A stretch of 64,000 bases of DNA from Candidatus Bathyarchaeia archaeon. GTDB lineage: Archaea > Thermoproteota > Bathyarchaeia > Bathyarchaeales > Bathycorpusculaceae. The notes below the pieces were generated by a model that saw only the letters and a program-made list of their open reading frames with translations, ran no database searches and was not told where the DNA came from. The DNA lies in the NCBI GenBank assembly GCA_038882535.1, contig JAVZOA010000001.1, positions 731 through 64,730 on the forward strand, read 5' to 3'. The position numbers and the translations under genes are program-made. This document shows, piece by piece, positions 27,832-63,704 of the stretch. The number at the start of each line of letters is the position of its first letter. The stretch's first letter is position 1.

Positions 27832-27909
27832 GCGGCCGTAGTCTAGCCTGGACTAGGACATCAGCCTGCCACGCTGACGACCCGGGTTCAAATCCCGGCG
27901 GCCGCACCA
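27832..27909 (+). tRNA. tRNA-Gly (anticodon GCC), CCA encoded
   Basis: Hand-folded cloverleaf: 7-bp acceptor GCGGCCG/CGGCCGC, D stem GTCT/GGAC, anticodon stem TCAGC/GCTGA with loop CTGCCAC, T arm CCGGG-TTCAAAT-CCCGG, discriminator A, then CCA. Confidence 0.9.
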
Positions 27910-30179: not shown

Positions 30180-31658
30180 TTATTTCTTCCAGAAAAGATA
30201 AACCTTAGTCTGTGATAGGAGGCCGCAAATTTTAATTAAGTGTGCAAGCCTTGAAAGGCTTGCTTTTTTAACTTCTTTATTGTAGGTTTGCTTTTTTCCG
30301 AATGGCATGTGACAAAAGAAGTATTTCATAAACCGTGCGTGGCTATACTTAATGAAGGCTTCTCTAACCGTTTGAATTTCTTTTTCGTTTAGGCTTTGAA
30401 GCCTGTTTAAAATGTATCTTTCGCTCCCAAGCAGGTGAATGTTGAAGCCCAGTTTCCGTAAAACCTCTGCAATTTTTAGAGCTTGTTTTGGCGGAGGCTG
30501 CTCAACTATTTTTTGCATTCCTGCTTTTTCTGCGAAGGGATTGTATTTTGCCATGACTGCTGGCATTTCCACGTAAGGCGTTCCCACTAAATGTAGTGTT
30601 TCTCTGACAAGTTTTGCCCCTAAACCAATAGTGCGATATTTCGGGTGCACAACAACACGGCTGATTATGCTCAGTTTTTCGTTAAGCTCTTTCATGCTCA
30701 TTTTTGGCAGGACAAGTCTTCTTCCGAAGCATGTCGGCGGCGGGTGGGCATACACGATCACTCCACAAAGCTCGTCGCCTCTTTTTAGACTGAAGATTTT
30801 TCGTGGACCAGCTATTTTGTGACTTCTATAATGGAATTCAGCGAGCTTATGCCAATCTTGAACCGTGCCTTCCTTTATGCGCATCTCTTTGACGAGGCTG
30901 CACTCTTTTGCTGGTTGGTTGGGGTAATAGTTTACGGTTATTTCTTTTCCGAACAGTTTATGGATGTGGACGCTTGGGTTTAAGTCTTCAAAAAGGTCTG
31001 TGTGGGTTGTCGCAGCTAAAACTGCTTTGCCCTGCTGCCTTGCCAGTTTCTGAAGGTTGTAGGCGACTATTTTTGCCGTGTCCCTGTCGAGTGTAGCTGC
31101 GAACTCGTCCATTATCCAGAATTGCGCTTGGCTTTCAATCATTTTGGCTATTTTGTAGCGGTATTTCTGGCCGTCTGAAAGTTGCTCGTAAGTGCGTAGG
31201 AATAGGAAAGCGTCGTTTAAACCGACTCGGCTTAAAAGCTCCAAAGCCTCTTCAAGGCTTTTACCAAGGGTTTCCACGAGAGGCTTGTCGCGGATTATTT
31301 GCTTTTCGACTTCAGCGATGTTTATGCAGGTCCAGTTGGTGTCCCGCCTTATGTCCTCTTCTAATGCCTTTAAAAGGACGCTTTTTCCGCTGCCTGAATC
31401 GCCTGTTATGTAAACGATGTCCGTCGGCCCAATTTTTAACTCAATGTTGTCGTAAATGACAAATTTCTGCCATTTGTCAAGGCCTAAACCGAAAGCTTCA
31501 GCTACTCCAACCACGCGGTCAGTAGGCTCTGGGGCTGCCGTTTCGTAGGCTATGTTGATGATAAACTTGCCTGACTTAACGTCGAATCTGCGTATGTGCT
31601 GCTTGATGACGAAATGTTCAGGCTTGGAAGTTGGCGGCTGCAAGGCTGTCTCCCACAT
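30180..31658 (-). CDS. ABC-type ATPase fused to a GNAT acetyltransferase domain
   Basis: Walker A GDSGSGKS, signature LSDGQ, Walker B FWIMDEF, H-loop TTHTD, then GNAT motif A ISRVVVHPKYRTIGLGAKLV. ATG at 31658 chosen; the longest ORF starts at 31724. Confidence 0.75.
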   Translation of the reverse strand: MWETALQPPTSKPEHFVIKQHIRRFDVKSGKFIINIAYETAAPEPTDRVVGVAEAFGLGLDKWQKFVIYDNIELKIGPTDIVYITGDSGSGKSVLLKALEEDIRRDTNWTCINIAEVEKQIIRDKPLVETLGKSLEEALELLSRVGLNDAFLFLRTYEQLSDGQKYRYKIAKMIESQAQFWIMDEFAATLDRDTAKIVAYNLQKLARQQGKAVLAATTHTDLFEDLNPSVHIHKLFGKEITVNYYPNQPAKECSLVKEMRIKEGTVQDWHKLAEFHYRSHKIAGPRKIFSLKRGDELCGVIVYAHPPPTCFGRRLVLPKMSMKELNEKLSIISRVVVHPKYRTIGLGAKLVRETLHLVGTPYVEMPAVMAKYNPFAEKAGMQKIVEQPPPKQALKIAEVLRKLGFNIHLLGSERYILNRLQSLNEKEIQTVREAFIKYSHARFMKYFFCHMPFGKKQTYNKEVKKASLSRLAHLIKICGLLSQTKVYLFWKK

Positions 31659-32739
31659 TATATTGTTGGGCTGAAGGCGGGGTTGGAGGCGTGAAAGTGA
31701 CTTGTAAAGCCAAAGCGTCAACATAGGCTGTTTCTTTGGATTTTACCGCTGGAACTGGCAGCTCATCCATAAACTGAGCCATAGAATAGCCGTGCTTCTT
31801 TAGGAATACAAAATCGCTTGGGTGAAACTCTTCAAGGCTTAGGAGGGCGTCTGCCCTCTCTAATATGACGTTGTAGGCTTTCGCTTTTCTTATGTGAAGC
31901 TCGGCTCTTTGTATGGGGACATTGACTATTTTATCGCTTAATCGTGTGAGTTTGCATGGTAGCCAAACCCTGTTGCCGTTTCGCAACTGCTCCCAAATCT
32001 GCTTTGACGTCATCTGGGTGTATTCGCTCTCTTTTAGCCCTTCAATCCAGACCCGGTGGGGATGCTCTGCTGTAAACGTGAAATGGGCTTGGTAAGCGAA
32101 CATTTCATTAGTTGCTTTGCTGCGCTTGTAGTGTGGTAGAATGTGAAGCGTTACCCACTCCTCGCCTTCGCTGCACCTAACCTCTTTAACTCTTGCAAAG
32201 CCGAAAATGCCTTCTTCAGCCAAGTAGGCGTGAAGTAAGTCGCCAGCTTTGACCTCTTTTACGTTAACGAACTCTTTTTGGTTGTCTTCCGTGAGCCTTA
32301 TGAAGTAGGTGTTTTCGGAATAGCATCCACCCGTAGCCGATTCTTTCATTTTTATTCTGCAATCCGCGTTGTTGAGCTTGTTCAAGTCCCAGCTCGATTC
32401 GTAGCTTGTTATGTCATACCAGTCCCAAGTTAGGGATGTCCTGTTTGGGCATTGAAGTTCGTGTGCTGCTCCTCCAGAGTCAATATATCTCAAAACTGTG
32501 TAATGATTGTAGCCAGACGGGTTCACTTCATAATGCTTTACACCGACCTTGACAGCCGTTATGACGCTGCCCGGCGGGATGTCGTTTTCAGTGAAGCCCC
32601 ACCCGCCATATTTCACTTCAGAACCGTCTATGCTTGAAGACGTGTAAACGCCATCTTCGGTGTAAGCGTTTTCAGGGCTAACCCATCCTGACACGATTAC
32701 TTGATTTGTGGACGGATTTTTAGTCACCACTTGACTCAT
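31618..32739 (-). CDS. putative tail fibre/receptor-binding protein containing a Hint-like module
   Basis: Last large gene of the tail module. The N-terminus looks like a beta-sandwich. The internal CYSENTYFIRL...VKAGDLL...FTFTAEHPHRVW resembles intein/Hint blocks A and B. The ATG at 32739 overlaps the upstream stop (TAATG). Confidence 0.5.
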   Translation of the reverse strand: MSQVVTKNPSTNQVIVSGWVSPENAYTEDGVYTSSSIDGSEVKYGGWGFTENDIPPGSVITAVKVGVKHYEVNPSGYNHYTVLRYIDSGGAAHELQCPNRTSLTWDWYDITSYESSWDLNKLNNADCRIKMKESATGGCYSENTYFIRLTEDNQKEFVNVKEVKAGDLLHAYLAEEGIFGFARVKEVRCSEGEEWVTLHILPHYKRSKATNEMFAYQAHFTFTAEHPHRVWIEGLKESEYTQMTSKQIWEQLRNGNRVWLPCKLTRLSDKIVNVPIQRAELHIRKAKAYNVILERADALLSLEEFHPSDFVFLKKHGYSMAQFMDELPVPAVKSKETAYVDALALQVTFTPPTPPSAQQYNVGDSLAAANFQA

Positions 32740-33209
32740 TAAGCCTGCACAGCCCCTATACAATAATCAACTGTTCCAGCAGCATCCAAATACAGCACAA
32801 GCGAGTCTCCAGCATTAGACTGCCAAGGTCTCACAAAGCTCTTAACCACGCCAGTTTTAGGCGCGAGCTTTCCTTTGAAAATGTTTTTTCCAGAAGTGCC
32901 AAAATGGAGGCGAACTCCAACATCGGCTGAACCGCTGTTCCATAGGCTTATGTCGTAAACGCGTACGACTTTCTCAGAAACAGGCGAGATTATTGTTGTG
33001 CTGCCTGCAGCCGTCGGCGAGTATGTCCCACTAACCTGATGAGCATCTAAAATGCGGTCCTCAGGCGTTAATTGAAGCTGCCCTTCCAGCATAGCGACTT
33101 TAAGGTTTCCCGCCGACGTGAGTGAGACTGGAAGCTGTTCTGAAACTATTTTGACGGTTTCGTCTTCTTTTGTTTTTACTGGAAGTGTAGTTACAACCTC
33201 TGCTGACAT
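32739..33209 (-). CDS. putative tail tip/baseplate-associated protein
   Basis: 156-aa ORF between the hub-like and fibre-like genes, beta-rich. The call rests on position only. Confidence 0.4.
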   Translation of the reverse strand: MSAEVVTTLPVKTKEDETVKIVSEQLPVSLTSAGNLKVAMLEGQLQLTPEDRILDAHQVSGTYSPTAAGSTTIISPVSEKVVRVYDISLWNSGSADVGVRLHFGTSGKNIFKGKLAPKTGVVKSFVRPWQSNAGDSLVLYLDAAGTVDYCIGAVQA

Positions 33210-33213
33210 TTTA

Positions 33214-34893
33214 TCATGCTCTTTTTAGGGTTGAAACTGCGCCTCTTCCGAGTTTGGTTCTGGAAAGTTTTTCAACGGTTACCGTTGTGCTGCGTAAACC
33301 ATAAAGATAGTCAGCCAATAATGGCGGAGCCTTGCCAAGTTCTAATACAACTTCCAAGGTTTGATTTTTCCCATCAACAACATATTCAACGCTTTCAATG
33401 CGGAAATAACCTGAAACACCCTCGTTAGGCAGTGAAACATAGATTTTGTCCCCCGGAAGTACAGGTGTGTTGCCATAGTCAAGAACTGTGGTTCGCACCA
33501 CAATGTAGTCTGCTGGGTCTTTTAGGTGGTTCAGTAAAGCCCTTGCCCTTAAAAGGCATTCATAGTCGCTGTAGAGTTCCTCGTCTGTTTCGGTTAGCTC
33601 TCTCAAACCATAGAGGTTTTGGCTGTTGGTGTCTTCAACGGTGGCGGAGTATCTGCAGTTTTCAAAGAGTATGTGGTCAACATACATCATTGCGTATTCG
33701 CCGAGTCCGCCTGACTCTGGAAACTGCATGTAGAGGCCTATACGGTTAATGTTGTTCCAGTCCGGGCTGCCGTAAGGCGCCCAATACTCTTCAAGGCTTA
33801 ACTCAATCTTTTTCCAAGTGTTCGGCGAGTCAACAAGGTCGTAAAGCAGTTCCCGATAATAATAGTTGTTTGCGTCTTTGTGAAGCCGCACTTGAATGGT
33901 TGAAGGGTTTACTCCGCTTCTGAAAGGTTGCCATTTAATCCAGAACCGCAGCTTCTTGAAGCCGTCAGGCTCTCTGGCTTTAATTGTGCTTGGCAAAATT
34001 CGGTAAAAGCCAATTCTGTCTTTGGTTGTGGAGTTATAAACCCAGTTAACCCTAATGGAATTGCTGTCTGTGTAAATTTTCTCCCCGTCCTTGGAAACAT
34101 GATCTGGTATGTCGACAACATCATGGTCGTCATAATACGGATACCAATTGTCACGGGTCTCTGTTAAGCCATCTTCGTTATCATCTGAGGGTAGCTTCTT
34201 TTCCAAAGAGCCTAAAACTTTGATTTTGTTGCGAATCCTGAAAATGTCCCTTTGATATTCACTGGCTTCAATTCTGTCTGTAAGGCTTACGGGTGATGTT
34301 TTACTGTTTTTGGGGAAAAATTCAAACTTGCCGTCTGGAGCCACTCTGAAGTCGAAGCCTACAACGCCGTTTTTGTCAGCGGACTCCGCAATATACTTGA
34401 TAATGTCCCAAACAGGCGTGTTCTCATATTCCAGCCACGTATAAGTTGTATCCGTGTTTTCAACAAGTTCTGTGGAATCCCTAACGTGGCTTAATCCTAC
34501 ATAATAATCCAAGAGGTATTTAACGATGGCTTCACCTTTCATGTTTTCAAAGGCACCAGTGAATACTCGGCGGAAAAGGCGTTCTCCCCAGCATCTGCCG
34601 CTGACCAGTGTGTAATGTTCGTTTGGCGTGGATTCATGTTTAATGGATTCAATGCGACAAGTTATTATCTGCGGAACATTAGAGCCTCTGCCAATAAAAA
34701 TGGAGCCGTCCATTCCAACAGCAAGCGGAACAGAACCGTTTGGGCTGTATTTACCGTCCCAATTCTGAAGTAGCAGTTCAAAACTGCTAACCTCTTTTGT
34801 GCAGCCTAAATGCACACGGCACTCGATTACATCGCTTTGCGGAATCCCATAACCGCCGAAGGCTAAAGCCATTTTTGGAGTTTCAACACTCAC
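33214..34893 (-). CDS. putative tail hub / distal tail protein
   Basis: 559 aa, directly downstream of the tape-measure-like gene with a 4-nt overlap. The N-terminus (VIECRVHLGCTKEVSSFELLLQNWDGKYS) resembles gpD/gp27-type hub N-domains. Confidence 0.5.
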   Translation of the reverse strand: MSVETPKMALAFGGYGIPQSDVIECRVHLGCTKEVSSFELLLQNWDGKYSPNGSVPLAVGMDGSIFIGRGSNVPQIITCRIESIKHESTPNEHYTLVSGRCWGERLFRRVFTGAFENMKGEAIVKYLLDYYVGLSHVRDSTELVENTDTTYTWLEYENTPVWDIIKYIAESADKNGVVGFDFRVAPDGKFEFFPKNSKTSPVSLTDRIEASEYQRDIFRIRNKIKVLGSLEKKLPSDDNEDGLTETRDNWYPYYDDHDVVDIPDHVSKDGEKIYTDSNSIRVNWVYNSTTKDRIGFYRILPSTIKAREPDGFKKLRFWIKWQPFRSGVNPSTIQVRLHKDANNYYYRELLYDLVDSPNTWKKIELSLEEYWAPYGSPDWNNINRIGLYMQFPESGGLGEYAMMYVDHILFENCRYSATVEDTNSQNLYGLRELTETDEELYSDYECLLRARALLNHLKDPADYIVVRTTVLDYGNTPVLPGDKIYVSLPNEGVSGYFRIESVEYVVDGKNQTLEVVLELGKAPPLLADYLYGLRSTTVTVEKLSRTKLGRGAVSTLKRA

Positions 34894-41576: not shown

Positions 41577-41969
41577 CTAATACACGTGCGGGTTCAAAGC
41601 AACAAGTATCACTTGACCAGCGGCTGTTGCAGCTTCGAGTGCGAAACCAACAGCCTTGTTGCCAGCAGTAGCTACAGAAACAACGTTACCGCCTGTGCCT
41701 GCGCCTACAGCGGCTCCAACGGATATGGCGCCGCCGGATGTTGCATAAACTATTGGGCAGCCAACAACAACTGGGACTTTTTGGCCTAAAGAGGCTGAAG
41801 CTGCAGCTATGCCTACAACGGCGTCTGTTGCAGCTGAAGCTGGCTGAACAGTCATGCTGTCGGTTATTTTGACGACTTGCCCCTTTGTTATGTTGGCGCC
41901 TGCGGTAAAATTGACTATGTGGCCGGCATCGGCGAAAATGTTTCCTGCTACACGAGCCTCAAACGACAT
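41577..41969 (-). CDS. DUF2190-like head decoration/cement protein
   Basis: 130-aa Gly/Ala/Val-rich protein (GQVVKITD...DAVVGIAA...GQKVPVVVGCPIV...VGFALEAA...VILVAL) immediately upstream of the MCP gene. Confidence 0.55.
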   Translation of the reverse strand: MSFEARVAGNIFADAGHIVNFTAGANITKGQVVKITDSMTVQPASAATDAVVGIAAASASLGQKVPVVVGCPIVYATSGGAISVGAAVGAGTGGNVVSVATAGNKAVGFALEAATAAGQVILVALNPHVY

Positions 41970-47201: not shown

Positions 47202-47450
47202 TTAATTGAACACTTCCCTGAGAAAGTTTAGGGCAGCGGTCAAGCAGGCTATTACCAGCGTGATTGTAACAACTTGGCTTGTCTGAAAGCCAATTATCAA
47301 ACCGCTTATAAACCCAATAGCGGCAGACTGACAAGCCCTTTTGAGGCTCCTTTTTGCATAAAGCTTGAACCATCGCCTTCGCTGAATAAGGCGGAACCTA
47401 AAAGCCCTAAACAGGCTTTTTCTGAAAGCTGCCAGTCCCCCTCGTGTCAA
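47202..47450 (-). CDS. small membrane protein
   Basis: 82 aa with a basic N-terminus and two hydrophobic helices. Confidence 0.4.
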   Translation of the reverse strand: MTRGGLAAFRKSLFRAFRFRLIQRRRWFKLYAKRSLKRACQSAAIGFISGLIIGFQTSQVVTITLVIACLTAALNFLREVFN

Positions 47451-47691
47451 CTAAAACCTCGCCCCGCTCAACGTTTGGCACAAGATTTAGGCTGAAGCCT
47501 TCAAAATTCAGCAAGCCCAAAACATCCAGCCGTGAAAGCCGCGAAACAACCTCGCCCCTAAACCTATCCAGATAGGCGTGACGGAAAATCAACCCCCGCA
47601 CAACCCTATATTGAAGCCTATCAAAACAACGCTTATGAGGCATAAATATGGCCTCCGCTAAACGCCACTCAAAGGCGGCGAGCAAACTCAA
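47407..47691 (-). CDS. hypothetical protein
   Basis: 94-aa ORF overlapping the downstream gene by 44 nt. Confidence 0.35.
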   Translation of the reverse strand: MSLLAAFEWRLAEAIFMPHKRCFDRLQYRVVRGLIFRHAYLDRFRGEVVSRLSRLDVLGLLNFEGFSLNLVPNVERGEVLVDTRGTGSFQKKPV

Positions 47692-47763: not shown

Positions 47764-47928
47764 ATGCGGAGGAAAAGCTGGGTTAAAGTCTATCTAAGCC
47801 AAGAACAGAAACATTTGTTGGAGCGCATAGCAAAGAGCCTCGGCATAGGCGAAAGCGAAGTCCTGCGCCAAGCCTTCATGGAATACGCAAAAAGCATAAG
47901 CCTCATAACAGAAAAAGTCCACAGCTGA
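47764..47928 (+). CDS. ribbon-helix-helix (CopG/Arc-type) protein, 54 aa
   Basis: MRRKSWVKVYLSQEQKHLLERIAKSLGIGESEVLRQAFMEY follows the beta-strand/helix/helix RHH pattern. Not in the track because it is under 60 aa. Confidence 0.55.
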   Translation: MRRKSWVKVYLSQEQKHLLERIAKSLGIGESEVLRQAFMEYAKSISLITEKVHS

Positions 47929-47950: not shown

Positions 47951-50900
47951 TTATGGTGTGTGTTTTCTTTTTGTTTTTCGTTTTATTGTTATGAAGGTTG
48001 CTGTTAGGATTGTTAGTAATGCGATATATGGGGCGACTGGTCTTGTTTCGGTTGATAGTTGTATTGGGATTGAGTATCCTCCGACTGGGACAGTTGCAAC
48101 TGTTATGCGGGCTGCTTCGGATTGGACCGTTTTGCCTTTAGCGTCTATTATTTTTAGATGCACATAGTATATGCCGGCTGTTGTTGGCGTAAAAATCCAT
48201 GTGGCTGAGGCGGCTCCTGAGACTGGAGCGTTATTAAGATACCATTGATAAGTGTAGGGCGGGTAACCTCCAGATACTGTTGAAGTGAAGGTTACTGATT
48301 GACCTACGAGTATTGAGACTGAAAGCGGGCTTATAGAAATTGATAGCGGTGGTGGAGGAGGCGAGTATATGAATACTGCTTTCAGCGTGTGGTTTTTATC
48401 CATTAAAACTGTGTATGGGTTTGCTGAGCCGACATTTATTGTGTCGAGTTCCCAGTGGTCGAAAATGTAGTTTGTATCCGGAATTGCTGTGACTTGAACT
48501 GAGGAATTGGCCAGATAAATGTATGTTTCAGGGGTTGGGTCTGTTGTGCCGCCAATTGTTGTAATTATTGTTAAGGCGTATTTTGGAAGCTCTCCACCGC
48601 CAGTTCCTGTCACGCCTGACACAACGTAGTATTCTGTGCCATTGTAGTATGTGGTGGTTACTGTGATTCCGTTTATAGTTTCTCCGACATGAATAATCAT
48701 GTCAGCGTTTTCTAAGCTGACTTCTTCAAGTGATTTGGCGTTGAAGCATAAGTAAATTGCTCCTGCACCAGTAGATGGTATGTATAGAGTTTTGGATTTC
48801 TCGATCACCTCTGGCCATGAAGGCATATAGAAGAATGCTTTCCTTTCCACAATGTTTACATCAGCCATAAAAGCGGAAAGATCAATATTTTCGGTAGCGT
48901 TCTCAAAGTGCACCCCAAACTCTACTATGGGTGTTTCGGGTGAGGCTATTTTTGTGATAAGAACTGTTTCAAAAGTATTTTGTCCGTCTCCTCCCTCAGT
49001 TACACTAACACCTCTACCTGTTGAAACAGCTCGGAAATTCTCAGGAAGCCTACAAATATAATGCATTGGATTAAGCTCACCGCTTACAAATATACGATAG
49101 TCATATAAATGAACCCCTGAACCTTGAGGGGTGTATACTATTAAACTTAATCTGTATACTCCTGCGTAATCATATGAATGCAGAGGGTCATCCGCTCCAG
49201 TTTTTAATGATAAGTCCCCATAACCTTCCAAGGTTTCTCCATCTCCGAAATTCCATACGTAATAATAGTAGGAACTTAAACCAGTATTGGGTGGAACAAT
49301 TGTTAGCTCCACTACCTTTCTTTCACTTCGACGACCGGTTGCAAAATCAATAGTGTAAGCCATAAAATGAATATCTTGATTGTTTGATGGATTTCCAGGG
49401 CTTAATGTAAAGAAAAGACTTAAGCCAGGGTCGCTGCCAGCAACTCCCTCAAACGTATTATAGTTCACGATTGCTTGTCCATTCACCTTCACTAATCTGA
49501 TGATCTCCGTAGATTCTTGATAAACAGCTTCTGTCTCTACCACATGTTGAGCCATCGCGGAACTTGAAATCCAATTTACGTGTGTATGCCCACCGAAATC
49601 ATATATAGTAATCTTGTTATCTTTGCGGAGCCTTTCAAAGTAATCCACATACTCATTAGGACAAACGAAACCTCCTTCAAGAGAGAGTGGGTGATGACAA
49701 AAAACGACAACATTTCTTCCTTTATTTTCGTTAAGAAAATCATTAAGCCACGTAGTGGTATCACCGAATAATTGAACAAGTGCTCCCAACTTTGACCCTG
49801 GATATGCCATAGATGGATCTCGTGGGTTAAAATCTAAGCAAACAAAATTCATGTCGCCAAAACTAAATTTGTAGTTCTGCAAATACGGAGCACTACTGTG
49901 TAATTGCCTTTTCCAGGAACTGCCGAAAAGGCGAGTGATCAGGTCGCGGTTATTTTTGCTCTCTTGGTCTTCCCAAAAGACTTTTTGGAAAAATCTGTCT
50001 CCGAGGGAATCGGGATTGTAGCCAACTTTGCTTACGGCAGCGGCAATGTATCCTTCATCTCGTTTATCAGGGTCTGTTCCTTGTTGCATGGTGTATGGCC
50101 AGATATCGTGATTTCCTATGATTGGTATGTAGGGGATTCCGTCAGATGTGTCTCCGTCTCCGTTTGGGTCATTCAATTTGTTCAGTATTTCCCTTGCCTT
50201 TAGGAACTCTGACTTCTCGGCTGTGTCAGCTATATCGCCAAGGACAACCACAAACTTGATATTCTGTGCATCTTTCAGCTGGATTATTCTTTCAACAACT
50301 TTTTCTAACCTACTGGTCAGCCAATAATCTTGAGCTGCCTCCAAATTCGCATCATCATAGCCCGAGTCGCCATAGTCGCAATAACCCCAGCCAATATGTA
50401 TGTCAGTTATGATCGCGAATGACCATTCTCCAAGCTGAGAAACTTCGAGTGTGATATCTATAGTGTGAGCTGTGGTTCCACTGGTTCCAGTTACAGTCAA
50501 GCTATAACTTCCCGTTTTGGCAGTGGTGTCAACTGAAATTGTCAGCTTTGATGTAGTCGAACCATCTGGCGGCGGCGTAACAATTTCAGGGGTGATGGCC
50601 GCTCTGACTCCTGACGGTGCCCCAGAAACAGATAGTAAAACGGGTTGGTTGAAGCCATTTAGCGACATAACAGTTATGGTTAATGTATCTAAATCACCTT
50701 GCTGGATTGTTAAGAAGGTTGAAGAAGGTGTAATTGAAAAATCTGCGGTAGGTGGTGGTAGTGTTGTTAGTGGTAGGTAGTTGTTTATTCTTGAGCTTGT
50801 GTTTATGAAGAATTCGTATTGTTGACTGTTGTAAGTTATTAGGGCTTCTACTTCATAGTGTCCGTTGTTTATTGGTTTGATGGCGTTTAATATTTTTCCT

Positions 50901-52483
50901 TGGAAGGTGTATGTGTTTGGTGCTGTTTGGCTATAAGTGAACTGGCTTAAATCTACAATTTGCCGGACATGCTCCTTGTCCAGTCCATCGGTTGCTATTA
51001 AATAAACTGTGGGAATCTGGCTTGGAACCTGCCCGCCAAGGCTTACTTCACCGCTAATAAGCAAGTCTGAGTTGGATAAGGTTGCGGTTCCGTGAATGTG
51101 ACCATTACCTTCAGCCGTGACGTAGTTGTCATCTAAGTTATACTGGAAATCTGTGTCAAAAGACCATTCTTGAACAAGGCTCCAAGGATTCATGAGTGGG
51201 TATCTGTCTCTGTTATTCTCGTCAATGACGTATGGTGTATCACCTATCCCATCACTTCCAGGCTGATCCTGATTAGGACCGCCTTTCTCATCAACGCCAG
51301 CATAGTCGCTCCAGTAGTTTCCGCCAGAAGGATAACCATCATCCCAAACGTTAGTTGAAGCAAAACTACTCAATGTGTGTCTTGTATTGTTAATGAAGTT
51401 GTTATGGTAAATAACGTTGTTCGAAGATTTCCAGAGATGAATGCCACCCGCATTGATGTCATACCCATTGTTTGTTATGTTGTTTCCAAAAACGATGTTA
51501 TAATAAGAATGCACGAGAAGAACACCATACTCGACGTTTGCTGCTATATTGTTATTTGTTATTCTCGTGTTGTTTGTCATCCATAGTTCTATACCGATGT
51601 CTGTGCGAGTGAGGTTGAGATTCTCCAAGACAATACCATCACAGTTTACAAGAATCACCTCCCCTGCATCTTCAACCGTGAGGTATGACACTCCCTCAAG
51701 ATAGATAAGTGGCTTGCCATTCACCAAATTATCCTTAATAACGTTATCATAAGAATCCCATACAAATAAACCATCATCAGTAAACATGTTTCCAGATATG
51801 CTGTTGTTAGAAGAATAATCGAGACCAATGCCCTCCCAGCTGTTTGCTGTTATGTTGTTTCCAGAAATGCTGTTATAAGAAGAATAACTGAGCCAGAGGC
51901 CATACCCATTGTTTGTTATGTTGTTCCTGCAAACAATATTGTTGTCAGAAACATAAATCATAATGCCCTCCCAGCTGTTTGCTGTTATGTTGTTTCCAGA
52001 AATGCTGTTATAAGAAGAATAACTGAGCCAGAGGCCACACCCATTGTTTGTTATGTCGTCTCCATGAATGTCGATACCTGAAGAATAGTTTAGGTGGATA
52101 CCAAAAGTGAATCCTGAGATTTTTATATTTTTGATGATGACGTCCCTTCTTTCGGTCAGATCTATTCCTGTAGATTCATAAACTATGCCTACTCCTTGAA
52201 GCATGTGGCCAGCGCCATCCAGCACTATGTCGTTCCTGTTAATGACTATTGCACTCATACGCGCGCCTTCTGGAACCTCTATGACAATATCGTCAGTAAA
52301 GGTGTAAGTCACATAATCAACCGTTGAAATGGGAGCATCTGTAGGCACAACGCGTCCATCAGCAAGAATATAAATCGTTCCTCCATAAGTATAACTGGAC
52401 TTGACTGGTTGAACTTTGAGCACCGCTGTCAACACACTAATTACAAGCAGAGCCAACATTAGAGCAGAAACAATTTTCTTCAT
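47951..52483 (-). CDS. giant secreted multidomain protein: beta-helix repeats + metallophosphoesterase + PKD/Ig-like domains + C-terminal TM anchor
   Basis: Signal/anchor MKKIVSALMLALLVISVLTAV. Repeated NNITNNGYGLWLSYSSYNSISGNNITAN (parallel beta-helix). Phosphoesterase motifs ITDIHIG, LGDIAD, IIGNHD, CHHP and GGHTHVNW. PKD-like WNFGDGE...YAGVYRLSL. C-terminal hydrophobic helix plus KRKTKRKH. Confidence 0.8.
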   Translation of the reverse strand: MKKIVSALMLALLVISVLTAVLKVQPVKSSYTYGGTIYILADGRVVPTDAPISTVDYVTYTFTDDIVIEVPEGARMSAIVINRNDIVLDGAGHMLQGVGIVYESTGIDLTERRDVIIKNIKISGFTFGIHLNYSSGIDIHGDDITNNGCGLWLSYSSYNSISGNNITANSWEGIMIYVSDNNIVCRNNITNNGYGLWLSYSSYNSISGNNITANSWEGIGLDYSSNNSISGNMFTDDGLFVWDSYDNVIKDNLVNGKPLIYLEGVSYLTVEDAGEVILVNCDGIVLENLNLTRTDIGIELWMTNNTRITNNNIAANVEYGVLLVHSYYNIVFGNNITNNGYDINAGGIHLWKSSNNVIYHNNFINNTRHTLSSFASTNVWDDGYPSGGNYWSDYAGVDEKGGPNQDQPGSDGIGDTPYVIDENNRDRYPLMNPWSLVQEWSFDTDFQYNLDDNYVTAEGNGHIHGTATLSNSDLLISGEVSLGGQVPSQIPTVYLIATDGLDKEHVRQIVDLSQFTYSQTAPNTYTFQGKILNAIKPINNGHYEVEALITYNSQQYEFFINTSSRINNYLPLTTLPPPTADFSITPSSTFLTIQQGDLDTLTITVMSLNGFNQPVLLSVSGAPSGVRAAITPEIVTPPPDGSTTSKLTISVDTTAKTGSYSLTVTGTSGTTAHTIDITLEVSQLGEWSFAIITDIHIGWGYCDYGDSGYDDANLEAAQDYWLTSRLEKVVERIIQLKDAQNIKFVVVLGDIADTAEKSEFLKAREILNKLNDPNGDGDTSDGIPYIPIIGNHDIWPYTMQQGTDPDKRDEGYIAAAVSKVGYNPDSLGDRFFQKVFWEDQESKNNRDLITRLFGSSWKRQLHSSAPYLQNYKFSFGDMNFVCLDFNPRDPSMAYPGSKLGALVQLFGDTTTWLNDFLNENKGRNVVVFCHHPLSLEGGFVCPNEYVDYFERLRKDNKITIYDFGGHTHVNWISSSAMAQHVVETEAVYQESTEIIRLVKVNGQAIVNYNTFEGVAGSDPGLSLFFTLSPGNPSNNQDIHFMAYTIDFATGRRSERKVVELTIVPPNTGLSSYYYYVWNFGDGETLEGYGDLSLKTGADDPLHSYDYAGVYRLSLIVYTPQGSGVHLYDYRIFVSGELNPMHYICRLPENFRAVSTGRGVSVTEGGDGQNTFETVLITKIASPETPIVEFGVHFENATENIDLSAFMADVNIVERKAFFYMPSWPEVIEKSKTLYIPSTGAGAIYLCFNAKSLEEVSLENADMIIHVGETINGITVTTTYYNGTEYYVVSGVTGTGGGELPKYALTIITTIGGTTDPTPETYIYLANSSVQVTAIPDTNYIFDHWELDTINVGSANPYTVLMDKNHTLKAVFIYSPPPPPLSISISPLSVSILVGQSVTFTSTVSGGYPPYTYQWYLNNAPVSGAASATWIFTPTTAGIYYVHLKIIDAKGKTVQSEAARITVATVPVGGYSIPIQLSTETRPVAPYIALLTILTATFITIKRKTKRKHTP
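51827..52057. repeat. near-perfect 96-bp tandem-type duplication (135-bp period) inside the beta-helix region
   Basis: 51827-51922 and 51962-52057 differ at one position. Both encode SWEGI...NNITNNG(Y/C)GLWLSYSSYNSISGNNITAN. Confidence 0.85.
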
Positions 52484-52585
52484 TTTCCTTTCTCCTTTGT
52501 TCGGCAAAAAATATTATAATGTTGAATTTTTGCTTAAATTTTACGGAAAAATCTTCTATAACGGTTGTCTACATCACTTTCGGTT

Positions 52586-52610
52586 TGTGTGTGCGTGTGT
52601 GCGTGCACGC
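52586..52610. repeat. 25-nt perfectly alternating pyrimidine-purine tract
   Basis: tgtgtgtgcgtgtgtgcgtgcacgc. A 13-nt stretch (52587-52599) is the reverse complement of 52767-52779. Confidence 0.8.
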
Positions 52611-52764
52611 TTCCGCCTACACTAATAGTCTCTCTGTTTCTTTAAGAATCAGGCATTCTTCTTCTATGGTTAAATAATAGCCTCTCCGCTAACCAACTCT
52701 ATGTTTGTTTCATCCTTTTCTCTTTCTTCAGGTGAGCGTGTTTAGTCTCTCTTTAGGGCTTCTC

Positions 52765-52779
52765 TGCACACGCACACAC
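52765..52779. repeat. 15-nt alternating pyrimidine-purine tract, inverted partner of 52587-52599
   Basis: tgcacacgcacacac, at the 3' end of ORF 52779..53126. Confidence 0.8.
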
Positions 52780-53126
52780 TAAATTTTTTCAGTTTTCACC
52801 TCCTTTACCTCTTCATTCTGTTTCAGTCTTATGTCGGTCAGCTTTAATTGTTTCAGCTTTTCTTTCAAGTGTTCTGTGACGAACTGTTCTATGGCTTCAA
52901 CGTCTATCCTGTAAATGACTACGCCCAAGGGATTCTTTGTTGCAGTCTTTAGAAACCCTAAATCTTCCGTTAGCATCCGCATATACTTTTGAACTGTTCT
53001 TTTGTCTGCTCCTACGCTTATCTTGATTAGTCTTTCAACTTCTGTGGATGGTATTTGCAGCCTGTAGCCTCTCTCAAGCATTTCTTCGACAAGTTCTATG
53101 CATTTGCGGAAGGCCTTACTAACCAT
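52779..53126 (-). CDS. putative winged-helix DNA-binding protein
   Basis: 115 aa. ADKRTVQKYMRMLTEDLGFLK resembles a wHTH recognition helix, followed by a charged C-terminal tail. Confidence 0.4.
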   Translation of the reverse strand: MVSKAFRKCIELVEEMLERGYRLQIPSTEVERLIKISVGADKRTVQKYMRMLTEDLGFLKTATKNPLGVVIYRIDVEAIEQFVTEHLKEKLKQLKLTDIRLKQNEEVKEVKTEKI

Positions 53127-54832: not shown

Positions 54833-55024
54833 TTATTCCTCCTTTGAAATGTTGTATTGCTGGAAAAGCCTCCGCACAGCCTCCTTAACAACCTCTGAGC
54901 GGCTAACAAAGCCATACTTGCCGACAAAATTGTCTATTTCATCCACAAGCGTTTTCGGCAGCTTTATGGTGACATATTTGCCGCCCATAGGCTTTTTCCA
55001 CCTGCAGATTCCTATTTTCGGCAT
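54833..55024 (-). CDS. ribbon-helix-helix (CopG-type) regulator
   Basis: YVTIKLPKTLVDEIDNFVGKYGFVSRSEVVKEAVRRL. The start is at either 55024 or the internal Met at 54988. Confidence 0.7.
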   Translation of the reverse strand: MPKIGICRWKKPMGGKYVTIKLPKTLVDEIDNFVGKYGFVSRSEVVKEAVRRLFQQYNISKEE

Positions 55025-55136
55025 GGTCTAAGTATTTAAATTTGATGTAATTAATTAGTAATAAGTTACACTTGCATGGCTATGGATTTTTGACAGAAAA
55101 TTTTATACAGCCAAATTAACCATATATGGCTAACGG
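55025..55136. promoter_or_regulatory. divergent promoter/operator region between two RHH genes
   Basis: AT-rich 112-bp spacer with TATA-like ATTTAAAT (55034-55041) and AAAATTTTATAC (55097-55108), plus direct ATGGCTA repeats at 55076 and 55125. Confidence 0.4.
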
Positions 55137-55562
55137 ATGAGTAAAATGAGCAAGCCAAAACCAGGCTCAGATCACATAACAATAAAACTTCCAAAAGAGC
55201 TTGTCGAAGAAATGGACAGGCTTATAGGCGTAAAAGGCTTCAGAAGCAGAGGAGAAATAGCAAAAGAAGCCATACGCCAACTCCTAAGCCAATATAAAGA
55301 AAGCTTAATAACGCCGCCGTTGCCGCCCCTCGAACACTTCAACATAAGCGAAAACGGAGTCCGCATCCTCGACAGAACACTGGCAAACGGATACTCAAGA
55401 GGCCGCATTGTAGACGTATATTTTAAGCCAGATCGCATAATATGCGAATACTGCGGAACAGACAACTGCCGCCATGTACAATTCGCCCTTGCCATACCAA
55501 AAGTGAGAGAAATTCTCGCCCAAAAAGACTGGCCAATAAGTAAAAGAATCGGGGAAGAATAA
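55137..55562 (+). CDS. RHH domain fused to a SWIM-like zinc-finger domain
   Basis: HITIKLPKELVEEMDRLIGVKGFRSRGEIAKEAIRQLL (RHH) and C-terminal CEYCGTDNCRH (CxxC...CxH). Confidence 0.65.
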   Translation: MSKMSKPKPGSDHITIKLPKELVEEMDRLIGVKGFRSRGEIAKEAIRQLLSQYKESLITPPLPPLEHFNISENGVRILDRTLANGYSRGRIVDVYFKPDRIICEYCGTDNCRHVQFALAIPKVREILAQKDWPISKRIGEE

Positions 55563-63485: not shown

Positions 63486-63704
63486 ATGCGAAAGAAAGGG
63501 TGGAAAAGAAGAATGCCTAAACCCGGAATGACTGGAATAAGTCTCAAAAAAGAAGTCGCCGATTTACTAAGAGCCAAAGCAAAAGCCTCCAAAATGGGAA
63601 TAAACGATTTTCTAAGGTTAATTTTAGAAAAGGAGCCTTTAAATCAAGCCTGCCACGCTGACGACCCGGGTTCAAATCCCGGCGGCCGCACCACAGACTT
63701 TTAA
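63486..63704 (+). CDS. SSV-type integrase N-terminal fragment Int(N), RHH-like
   Basis: [33 protein letters not shown] (strand-helix-helix), then reads into attR as [16 protein letters not shown], the same frame and peptide as Int(C). It terminates 9 nt after the repeat. Confidence 0.75.
63647..63695 (+). repeat. attR core (49-bp perfect direct repeat)
   Basis: Identical to 27863..27911. It is a tRNA 3' half without a 5' half. Confidence 0.9.

What the first reader, a model, noticed from the sequence alone, without database searches (positions are those of the whole stretch)
47951..52483. 1,510-aa secreted beta-helix / metallophosphoesterase / PKD protein carried inside the provirus
The gene lies between the early-gene block and the packaging genes, on the late strand. 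The product has an N-terminal signal or anchor, a long run of parallel beta-helix repeats (NNITNNG.GLWLSYSSYNSISGNNITAN), and a complete calcineurin-type phosphoesterase motif set (DIH, GD, GNHD, HH, GHTH). It also has PKD- and Ig-like modules and a C-terminal hydrophobic helix followed by KRKTKRKH, resembling archaeal C-terminal sorting or anchor signals. This looks like a host-surface protein rather than a virion part. It could remodel the lysogen surface (receptor masking, exopolymer or eDNA hydrolysis, adhesion). Beta-helix depolymerase tailspikes do share the repeat type, so a virion role is not excluded. One counted line (51421-51480: 25/60 G+C) is lower in G+C than one counted line of the structural module (41581-41640: 31/60).
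Basis: partly seen in the sequence, partly recalled or inferred. Interest (0 to 1): 0.6.

Follow-up and report, generated by a model that had tools for sequence, protein, structure and literature searches.

The report
Host-type surface enzyme carried by archaeal provirus
A tailed virus integrated in a Bathyarchaeia genome carries, as optional cargo, a 1,510-residue exported, cell-anchored enzyme built from the same modules as the archaeon's own surface proteins, and its phosphodiester-cutting core was not found in the other genomes of the host genus that I searched.

Summary
The ORF is 47951-52483 (-), 1,510 aa. It has a signal peptide, a NosD-type beta-helix, a complete metallophosphoesterase motif set, PKD/Ig modules, and a C-terminal helix followed by KRKTKRKH.

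It lies inside a 35.8-kb head-tailed provirus in tRNA-Gly, exactly at the junction between the early and late modules. Relatives that share the early module (78% nt) or the late module (portal 83%, capsid 87%) lack it, so it is optional cargo and not a virion part.

Its N-terminal signal peptide and its C-terminal tail (VPVGGYS, linker, TM helix, basic tail) are those of hundreds of Bathyarchaeia surface proteins. A similar architecture sits in a plainly chromosomal context elsewhere.

The enzyme core (phosphoesterase, PKD, an unknown beta-sandwich) is closest to GpdQ-type phosphodiesterases. It forms a widespread uncharacterised cassette. It was not found in 12 same-genus or 5 other same-family genomes.

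Best reading: a captured, host-addressed surface phosphodiesterase, that is, a lysogenic-conversion or auxiliary gene. This is a new member of a known kind (prophage moron); interest is moderate.

The parts
47951..52483 (-). Whole gene, 1,510 aa plus stop
52394..52483 (-). Signal peptide (residues 1-30: MKK, hydrophobic core, VQPVKS)
   Evidence: Hydrophobicity scan. The same type of N-terminus occurs in most homologues.
51179..52237 (-). NosD/CASH-type right-handed beta-helix (residues 83-435), with a recent 45-aa tandem duplication
50759..51178 (-). Module 'unk1' (residues 436-575). It has no Pfam hit, is missing in the close relative P0002, and is present in 20 other surface proteins.
50429..50758 (-). 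Ig-like module (residues 576-685)
   Evidence: Weak Pfam hits only; shared with 11 homologues.
49454..50428 (-). Metallophosphoesterase domain (residues 686-1010), GpdQ/class III phosphodiesterase-like
49094..49453 (-). PKD_4 domain (residues 1011-1130)
48593..49093 (-). Conserved beta-sandwich 'X' domain (residues 1131-1297). It has no Pfam model and no PDB fold match.
48359..48592 (-). InlB B-repeat (Flg_new_2) module
48089..48358 (-). PKD/Ig module (GGYPPYTYQWYLN type)
47954..48088 (-). C-terminal tripartite signal: VPVGGYSIPI, a 12-aa linker, a TM helix, and KRKTKRKHTP
   Evidence: No curated model matches it.
52484..52560 (-). AT-rich (74%) promoter-like stretch with TATA-like boxes, plus GGAG before the ATG
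   Evidence: This is read from the sequence and is not a tested promoter.
52584..52782 (-). Conserved inverted-repeat element that ends the early module. Homology with relative L124 stops right after it, which marks the left edge of the variable segment.
47764..47928 (+). Small ribbon-helix-helix (CopG) gene convergent with the large gene, inside the variable segment
27863..27911 (+). attL copy of the 49-bp repeat in tRNA-Gly(GCC)
63647..63695 (+). attR copy of the 49-bp repeat

Best explanation
The gene encodes a Sec-exported, C-terminally anchored (possibly archaeosortase-processed) cell-surface enzyme of the kind Bathyarchaeia make in large numbers. It has a glycan-binding or glycan-cutting beta-helix, spacer beta-sandwich and Ig modules, a binuclear-metal phosphodiesterase of the GpdQ/class III type followed by a PKD domain and a conserved unknown beta-sandwich, and a stalk of InlB-repeat and Ig modules ending in the lineage's sorting tail.

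The virus lineage picked it up as optional cargo (a moron) at the junction of its early and late modules. Once made, the host's own export and sorting machinery would place it on the outside of the cell. There it would hydrolyse phosphodiester bonds in an extracellular polymer or small diester, such as glycerophosphodiesters, teichoic-acid-like polymers of bacterial necromass, or nucleic acid. This would give the lysogen an activity that its genus otherwise lacks.

What is shown:
- the domain content and the intact catalytic residues;
- the host-type termini;
- the location inside the provirus;
- the absence from related viruses and from the same-genus genomes searched.

What is inferred:
- surface display;
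- phosphodiesterase activity and its substrate;
- benefit to the lysogen;
- expression during lysogeny.
For: 1. The gene is inside the provirus. TerL, portal, capsid and tail genes are intact.
2. It is optional. L124 shares 3.1 kb of the early module at 78% nt identity down to window 52595 and then diverges. L125-L130 share the late module (portal 82-84%, capsid 87-88%) from the 94-aa ORF onwards. None of them has the gene or any large exported protein.
3. The termini are host-type. About 80 of the 120 best homologues start with the same kind of signal peptide and end in VPVGGYS-linker-TM-KRKTKRKH. In between they carry quite different enzymes (Pfam columns).
4. A beta-helix/unk1/GH25/PKD/Metallophos protein (P0177) lies between the arginyl-tRNA synthetase and Trm56 genes, which is a chromosomal context.
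5. The C-terminal module occurs in 11 of 12 same-genus genomes. Archaeosortase-family genes occur in 9 of 12.
6. Synonymous codon use is host-like (log-likelihood ratio +0.026, at the host mean; all ten structural genes tested are negative). G+C is lower than in the rest of the virus.
7. The phosphoesterase ligands are intact and conserved. A profile search of the PDB gives GpdQ at 1e-10, then a dimetal phosphatase, SMPDL3A and Rv0805. The AlphaFold model has pLDDT 87, and its best folds are GpdQ, Rv0805 and Lmo2642.
8. The enzyme cassette was not found in 12 same-genus and 5 other same-family genomes. It was found in 1 of 29 relatives.
9. A second tailed-virus contig (L134) carries a 629-aa protein with a signal peptide, PKD, three Ig modules and the VPVGGYS anchor. 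It is on the strand opposite to its neck and tail genes.
Against:
- The gene is on the late strand at the head of the late block. The AT-rich stretch upstream could therefore be the late promoter and not a private one.
- The host MAG is only 63% complete and shows no archaeosortase gene.
- The C-terminal tail matches no curated sorting-signal model, so processing is conjecture.
- The closest full homologues (P0002-P0004, 65-75% identity) lie on 3-4 kb contigs whose context cannot be judged.
- The substrate is unknown. The metallophosphoesterase superfamily also contains nucleases and monoesterases.
Confidence: 0.6

Rival explanations
1. The protein is a virus life-cycle enzyme made late in infection. 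It would be exported to the outside of the infected cell to help egress (breaking the S-layer or wall polymers) or to destroy receptors, so that progeny do not stick to debris or the cell is not superinfected.
For: - The gene is on the late strand, directly upstream of TerS/TerL. Lysis genes sit in this position in lambdoid phages (general knowledge).
- Beta-helix folds are typical of depolymerases.
Against: - Relatives with the same packaging and head genes have no counterpart, and no exported enzyme at all, in the available stretches.
- A T5 run 9 nt after the stop and a convergent RHH gene separate the gene from the late genes.
- The architecture and both termini are those of ordinary cellular surface proteins.
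Confidence: 0.2
2. The protein is a virion tailspike or receptor-binding depolymerase.
For: - Parallel beta-helix.
- The Ig module hits PHROG 'Hoc-like decoration' and 'tail protein' families.
- The gene is on the late strand.
Against: - A Sec signal peptide plus a C-terminal TM anchor with a basic tail does not fit a protein that assembles onto tails in the cytoplasm.
- The PHROG hits cover only the generic Ig module at residues 1373-1468.
- No match among 50,697 phage records. The enzyme cassette is not found in IMG/VR contigs.
- It is absent from viruses with 83-88% identical portal and capsid.
- The tail module has its own distal proteins at 31618-34893.
Confidence: 0.07
3. The gene is a host gene that landed in the prophage after integration and has nothing to do with the virus, so it would not be packaged.
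For: - Host-like codon use and lower G+C.
- Absent from related viruses.
- The modules are common in chromosomes.
Against: - No transposase, no flanking direct or inverted repeats of 11 nt or more.
- The provirus is otherwise intact, with perfect att repeats.
- The insertion point coincides with the module junction where virus lineages recombine.
- The enzyme cassette was not found in 12 genomes of the host genus, so the host's own chromosome is an unlikely donor.
Confidence: 0.1

Closest known systems
Prophage morons / lysogenic-conversion surface proteins of bacteria (e.g. lambda Bor and Lom; general knowledge)
   Same: An optional gene inside a prophage, at a module boundary, with deviating composition. 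It encodes an exported envelope protein that related phages lack.
   Different: The host is an archaeon and the protein is very large (1,510 aa, ten modules). It has an enzymatic core and a host-lineage C-terminal sorting tail. Expression in the lysogen is not shown.
GpdQ glycerophosphodiesterase of Enterobacter aerogenes (PDB 3d03, 2dxl, 2zo9) and class III phosphodiesterases Rv0805 and Lmo2642
   Same: Same metallophosphoesterase fold and the same seven metal ligands. These are the best sequence-profile hit (1e-10) and the best Foldseek hits (TM on target 0.68-0.76).
   Different: Only 12-17% identity. The domain here has long inserts (about 325 against 230-274 residues). It is embedded in an extracellular multi-domain protein and is always followed by a PKD domain and the X domain. 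The substrate is unknown.
Adhesin-like / beta-helix surface proteins of archaea (ALPs of Methanobacteriales: PMC11532034, PMC13658579; the Bathyarchaeia NosD-domain proteins named)
   Same: Large, repeat-rich, secreted proteins made of beta-helix, Ig/PKD and stalk modules, in big paralogous families that shuffle modules.
   Different: This one carries a phosphodiesterase cassette and is encoded by a virus. The sorting tail is of the VPVGGYS type.
Archaeosortase-type C-terminal sorting signals (PGF-CTERM/ArtA, PEF-CTERM/ArtC; background in bioRxiv 10.1101/2023.06.07.544157)
   Same: Tripartite layout: a short conserved motif, a TM helix, then a basic cluster at the very C-terminus. It is shared by many otherwise unrelated secreted proteins of one lineage.
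   Different: The motif VPVGGYS lies about 12 residues before the helix. No NCBIfam or Pfam model matches it (best is Loki-CTERM at 11.4 bits against a cut-off of 19.9). No cognate sortase has been identified.

Membership tests
Calcineurin-like metallophosphoesterase superfamily (PF00149) | Score above the Pfam gathering threshold | tested here: met
   53.8 bits against 21.5, E 4.4e-14, when the domain is scanned alone. It was not listed at E <= 0.01 in the whole-protein scan.
Calcineurin-like metallophosphoesterase superfamily (PF00149) | Five motifs that supply the metal ligands (DxH, GD, GNH[DE], H, GHxH) | tested here: met
   D694, H696, D750, N791, H792, H930, H966 and H968 are present. 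They are invariant or nearly invariant in 26 and in 40 homologues.
Calcineurin-like metallophosphoesterase superfamily (PF00149) | Alpha/beta sandwich fold | tested here: met
   AlphaFold model with pLDDT 87. Foldseek gives GpdQ, Rv0805, purple acid phosphatase and Mre11 at probability 1.00.
GpdQ / class III phosphodiesterase branch | Closest relatives by sequence and by fold are diesterases of this branch | tested here: met
   PDB profile search gives GpdQ at 1e-10. Foldseek ranks 1-8 are GpdQ, Rv0805 and Lmo2642.
GpdQ / class III phosphodiesterase branch | Phosphodiesterase activity on glycerophosphodiesters or cyclic nucleotides | not testable with these tools
   This needs an enzyme assay.
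NosD (nitrous-oxide reductase maturation protein, TIGR04247) | Score above the NCBIfam cut-off of 300 bits | tested here: not met
   90.6 bits. Only the generic beta-helix (CASH) domain is shared, so this is not a NosD orthologue.
Right-handed beta-helix / CASH domain proteins (PF13229, PF05048) | Pfam scores above the gathering thresholds | tested here: met
   137.5 and 98.6 bits. There are 6 para_beta_helix repeats.
Archaeosortase/exosortase-type C-terminal sorting signals | Conserved motif, then a TM helix, then a basic cluster at the extreme C-terminus, shared by many proteins of the lineage | tested here: met
Archaeosortase/exosortase-type C-terminal sorting signals | Match to a curated signal model (PGF-, PEF-, VPXXXP-, Loki-CTERM and so on) | tested here: not met
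   Only Loki-CTERM, at 11.4 bits against a cut-off of 19.9, E 0.31. Pfam finds nothing.
Archaeosortase/exosortase-type C-terminal sorting signals | A cognate sortase gene in the genome | tested here: inconclusive
   None in the host MAG, which is 63% complete. PF09721 genes occur in 9 of 12 same-genus genomes. Which signal they serve is unknown.
Prophage moron / lysogenic-conversion gene | Lies inside the prophage and is absent from close relatives of the phage | tested here: met
Prophage moron / lysogenic-conversion gene | Own promoter and terminator; deviating composition | tested here: inconclusive
   The upstream stretch is 74% A+T with TATA-like boxes. A T5 run lies 9 nt after the stop. 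G+C is 41.8% against 46.1%. There is no functional test, and the upstream stretch could be the late promoter.
Prophage moron / lysogenic-conversion gene | Expressed in the lysogen and changes its phenotype | not testable with these tools
Phage tailspike / depolymerase receptor-binding proteins | Conserved among related viruses with the same tail, and no export or anchor signals | tested here: not met
   Absent from L125-L130. A signal peptide and a C-terminal anchor are present. No match in the phage records.

The most novel reading that the evidence does not exclude
Temperate tailed viruses of Bathyarchaeia act as vehicles for the lineage's modular, sortase-addressed surface proteome. This one would deliver a complete extracellular phosphodiesterase that the host genus does not otherwise have. 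The lysogen would then gain a new way to mine organic phosphate or glycerol-phosphate polymers from sediment necromass. That would be a true lysogenic conversion in an uncultured, globally abundant archaeal group. The second virus contig with a VPVGGYS-anchored Ig protein (L134) would be another instance.
Probability: 0.3. Interest if true: 0.6.

Novelty: new member of a known kind. Interest (0 to 1): 0.42.

Why it matters
Bathyarchaeia are among the most abundant archaea in anoxic sediments, yet none of their viruses has been cultured. The main survey of their viruses (PMC10848311) does not use the terms beta-helix, phosphoesterase, PKD or NosD.

A provirus that carries a full-size, host-addressed extracellular enzyme gives a concrete case for asking whether archaeal viruses change what their hosts can degrade.

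The work also singles out three uncharacterised items that can be tested in vitro:
- a widespread phosphoesterase-PKD-X cassette (556 sequence clusters);
- an X domain with no structural relative in the PDB;
- a lineage-wide VPVGGYS C-terminal tail that no curated model covers.

If the gene proves to be only a late-expressed helper or a passenger, the finding is ordinary.

Tried and rejected
- Exact look-up of the protein in public assemblies: not on record.
- Context of the three closest homologues: the contigs are 3-4 kb long. Their neighbours do not match the provirus, and none is a virus gene I could recognise.
- TerL-based search for syntenic relatives. Most relatives have a different gene order (tail, then TerL, then ABC-GNAT). 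The one syntenic contig (L012/L023) ends about 440 nt short of the gene's position.
- Beta-helix genes near relatives L025, L103 and G002. They lie beyond an integrase-sized ORF or at the edge of the provirus call, on the other strand, and have PEF-type tails. I treated them as probable host flank and not as evidence.
- The 336-aa phosphoesterase at the equivalent spot of L125: it is unrelated beyond the superfamily and has no signal peptide.
- PADLOC defence models for the protein and its neighbours: nothing relevant.
- Enzyme cassette in IMG/VR contigs: none. Whole protein in phage records: none. BFVD fold search: only generic phosphoesterases.
- Flanking repeats that would mark a transposition: none of 11 nt or more.
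- Rfam for the conserved inverted-repeat element: no hit.
- Literature on Bathyarchaeia viruses, archaeal proviruses, adhesin-like proteins in archaeal viruses, and archaeosortase signals in Bathyarchaeia: no description of such a gene or tail. Medvedeva et al. 2023 is not held.

Full report
**The observation**

The minus-strand ORF 47951-52483 is real and gives 1,510 residues from an ATG preceded by GGAG. A hydrophobicity scan finds only two strongly hydrophobic stretches, residues 1-27 and 1482-1500. The second is followed by KRKTKRKH.

Pfam places a NosD/Beta_helix region at residues 83-435, an InlB B-repeat at 1302-1372 and a PKD/Ig module at 1381-1452. The metallophosphoesterase domain was not listed at E <= 0.01 for the whole protein. 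It scores 53.8 bits (cut-off 21.5) when residues 686-1015 are scanned alone, and a PKD_4 domain follows it.

The quoted beta-helix repeat occurs twice exactly, as part of a recent 135-nt tandem duplication. The two G+C line counts are exact.

**The setting**

TerL, portal, major capsid and tail proteins are recognisable downstream on the same strand. A tRNA-Gly(GCC) lies at 27832-27909, and a 49-bp perfect direct repeat at 27863 and 63647 bounds a 35.8-kb provirus. Names attached to homologues and related loci show that the host is a Bathyarchaeia MAG. It has 1.05 Mb in 124 contigs and is 63% complete.

Upstream of the gene lies a minus-strand early block (54927-52779). This starts at a divergent pair of RHH genes. 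Downstream come a convergent 54-aa RHH/CopG gene on the plus strand (47764-47928), three small ORFs including a retropepsin-like protease, then a small ORF in the TerS position and TerL.

**Is it part of the virus's conserved gene set? No.**

- Probing with the 164-aa early protein found IMG/VR contig L124. It is 78% identical at the nucleotide level to window 55657-52595 and then diverges completely. Its late module is a different one. A pairwise alignment shows that the homology runs through a conserved inverted-repeat element and stops just after its second arm, at about window 52595.
- Probing with the 154-aa protease found contigs L125-L130. These share the late module: portal 82-84%, capsid 87-88%, and the 94-aa ORF at 47407-47691 at about 48%. 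Their early genes are different.
- None of these contigs encodes anything like the large protein, or any large exported protein at all.

The variable segment is therefore about 52595-47692. It holds the large gene plus the small RHH gene, and it sits exactly at the early/late mosaic junction. There are no flanking repeats of 11 nt or more and no transposase gene.

The 70 nt upstream of the gene are 74% A+T with TATA-like boxes, like the early promoter region (73%) and unlike internal operon junctions (49-61%). A T5 run follows the stop codon by 9 nt. This fits a separate transcription unit, but it does not prove one.

**What kind of protein is it?**

The whole-length search returned 513 proteins. 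The named ones are Bathyarchaeia NosD-, PKD- or InlB-repeat-domain proteins. Listing the termini of the best 120 shows that about 80 begin with the same kind of signal peptide (M-KK-hydrophobic-NIQPVKA) and end with [AT]VPVGGYS[IF]PI, a roughly 12-residue linker, a TM helix and KRKTKRKH. Between these ends they carry very different enzymes, including pectinesterase, GH25, PQQ propellers and solute-binding proteins. A minority end in a PEF-type tail instead, among them the two closest relatives of the enzyme core, P0003 and P0004.

Every module of the protein is shared with other members of this family in other combinations:

- 'unk1' (residues 436-575) is missing in the close relative P0002 but present in 20 others.
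- The last 212 residues are up to 79% identical to proteins with unrelated N-terminal halves.

One protein with a similar layout (P0177: beta-helix, unk1, GH25, PKD, Metallophos) lies between the arginyl-tRNA synthetase, Trm56 and sugar-kinase genes. That is a chromosomal context. The C-terminal module is found in 11 of 12 genomes of the host genus at 41-69% identity. Archaeosortase-family genes (PF09721) are found in 9 of 12, though none is found in the incomplete host MAG. The tail matches no curated sorting-signal model. Synonymous codon use of the gene is host-like and not like the structural genes.

**The enzyme core**

Residues 686-1300 (phosphoesterase, PKD, X) form a cassette with 556 cluster representatives among 1.84 billion, 139 of them below 1e-30. 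The cassette occurs in large secreted proteins of uncultured archaea (Bathyarchaeota, Diapherotrites, Methanophagales) and bacteria (Nealsonbacteria, Gottesmanbacteria, Aminicenantia, Dehalococcoidia). About half of the 119 listed proteins also carry a NosD beta-helix. At least 15 carry a cell-wall hydrolase domain such as M23, SLT, GH25, Amidase_6, 3D or GH18 (my count from the Pfam column).

A profile of 26 phosphoesterase domains hits GpdQ at 1e-10, then a dimetal phosphatase, SMPDL3A, Rv0805 and purple acid phosphatases. An AlphaFold model built on 40 sequences has pLDDT 87 and pTM 0.87. Its best PDB folds are GpdQ, Rv0805 and Lmo2642.

The X domain (1131-1297) is the most conserved part of the cassette. 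It models at pLDDT 94 as a beta-sandwich, yet has no significant PDB match (best E 0.03) and no Pfam family.

The cassette was not found in 12 other genomes of the host genus or in 5 other genomes of its family. It was found in only 1 of 29 relatives. It is also absent from IMG/VR contigs by pattern search and from 50,697 phage records.

**Mechanism I commit to (confidence 0.6)**

A Sec-exported, C-terminally anchored or sorted surface enzyme, captured by the virus lineage as optional cargo. It would act outside the cell on phosphodiester bonds. The beta-helix and the beta-sandwich modules would bind the polymer.

The GpdQ affinity and the frequent company of peptidoglycan hydrolases in homologues make glycerophosphodiesters or teichoic-acid-type polymers of bacterial necromass my first guess for the substrate. 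Nucleic acid is my second guess. This step is inference only.

A second tailed-virus fragment (L134) carries a 629-aa protein with a signal peptide, PKD, three Ig modules and the VPVGGYS anchor. It lies on the strand opposite to its tape-measure, tail and neck genes. So cargo of this kind is not unique to this provirus.

**Rivals**

- A late-expressed exported enzyme for egress or receptor destruction (0.2). This is favoured by the strand and by the position ahead of the terminase. It is weakened by the absence of any counterpart in relatives.
- A virion tailspike (0.07). This is contradicted by the export and anchor signals, by the non-conservation and by the lack of phage matches.
- A post-integration insertion unrelated to the virus (0.1). 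This is weakened by the absence of the cassette from the host genus, the lack of transposition marks and the location at the junction.

**Comparison with the known**

The finding works like a bacterial prophage moron that encodes an envelope protein. The protein is a member of the metallophosphoesterase superfamily (all tested features met) and of the generic beta-helix surface-protein class. It is not a NosD orthologue (90.6 bits against a cut-off of 300). I could not file the tail under any named sorting signal.

I found no paper that describes such cargo in Bathyarchaeia viruses or archaeal proviruses. I rate it a new member of a known kind, of moderate interest. What would lift it is evidence of expression in the lysogen and a measured activity.

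Noticed in passing
window 52584-52782 (minus strand): A 13-bp GU/AC-rich inverted repeat closes a roughly 170-nt element directly after the stop of the 115-aa early gene. MFE is -49.7 kcal/mol and z is -3.4. Both arms are conserved in the related virus contig L124, and the homology ends right after the second arm. There is no Rfam family. It could be a terminator, a small RNA or a recombination hot spot at the module border.
   Followed up: partly
window 47764-47928 (+): A 54-aa ribbon-helix-helix (CopG) gene is convergent with the large gene, with 22 nt between the stops and a TTTTAAAA box upstream. There is a 55% identical homologue on host contig C22 with no toxin gene beside it. Its transcript would run antisense into the large gene.
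   Followed up: partly
window 47954-48088, and the C-termini of P0005-P0120: A lineage-wide C-terminal tail ([AT]VPVGGYS[IF]PI, about 12 aa, a TM helix, KRKTKRKH) ends about 80 of 120 Bathyarchaeia surface proteins. No NCBIfam or Pfam sorting-signal model matches it. A second set of proteins uses a PEF-type tail on the same enzyme cassette.
   Followed up: partly
window 48593-49093: A conserved beta-sandwich 'X' domain nearly always follows the phosphoesterase-PKD pair. It models very confidently (pLDDT 94), but it has no PDB fold match and no Pfam family.
   Followed up: yes
G000 contig C80:1-2235: A second, related virus is present in the same MAG. Its portal gene (83-87% identical to the window's) carries an in-frame insert of about 340 aa between portal residues ~342 and ~340. 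This is a candidate intein.
   Followed up: no
L134:5552-7441 (IMG/VR UViG_3300032173_001370): Another tailed-virus fragment encodes a 629-aa secreted protein with PKD, three Ig modules and the same VPVGGYS anchor. The gene is on the strand opposite to the surrounding tape-measure, tail and neck genes.
   Followed up: partly
L131 (context of P0011, ENA k141_515520): A 1,920-aa surface protein with the same tail is flanked by a type IIG restriction-modification gene, a helicase and an integrase-like gene. This may be another mobile element that carries such a protein.
   Followed up: partly
L013-L015, L025, L103 compared with the window: In most relatives found through TerL, the terminase gene sits after the tail genes and right before the ABC-ATPase/GNAT gene. 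In this provirus TerL sits next to the portal gene. The packaging gene has therefore moved between lineages.
   Followed up: no
window 55024-55137: A divergent pair of RHH genes (54833-55024 on the minus strand, 55137-55562 on the plus strand) lies around a 73% A+T spacer. This looks like the lysis/lysogeny switch of the provirus.
   Followed up: no
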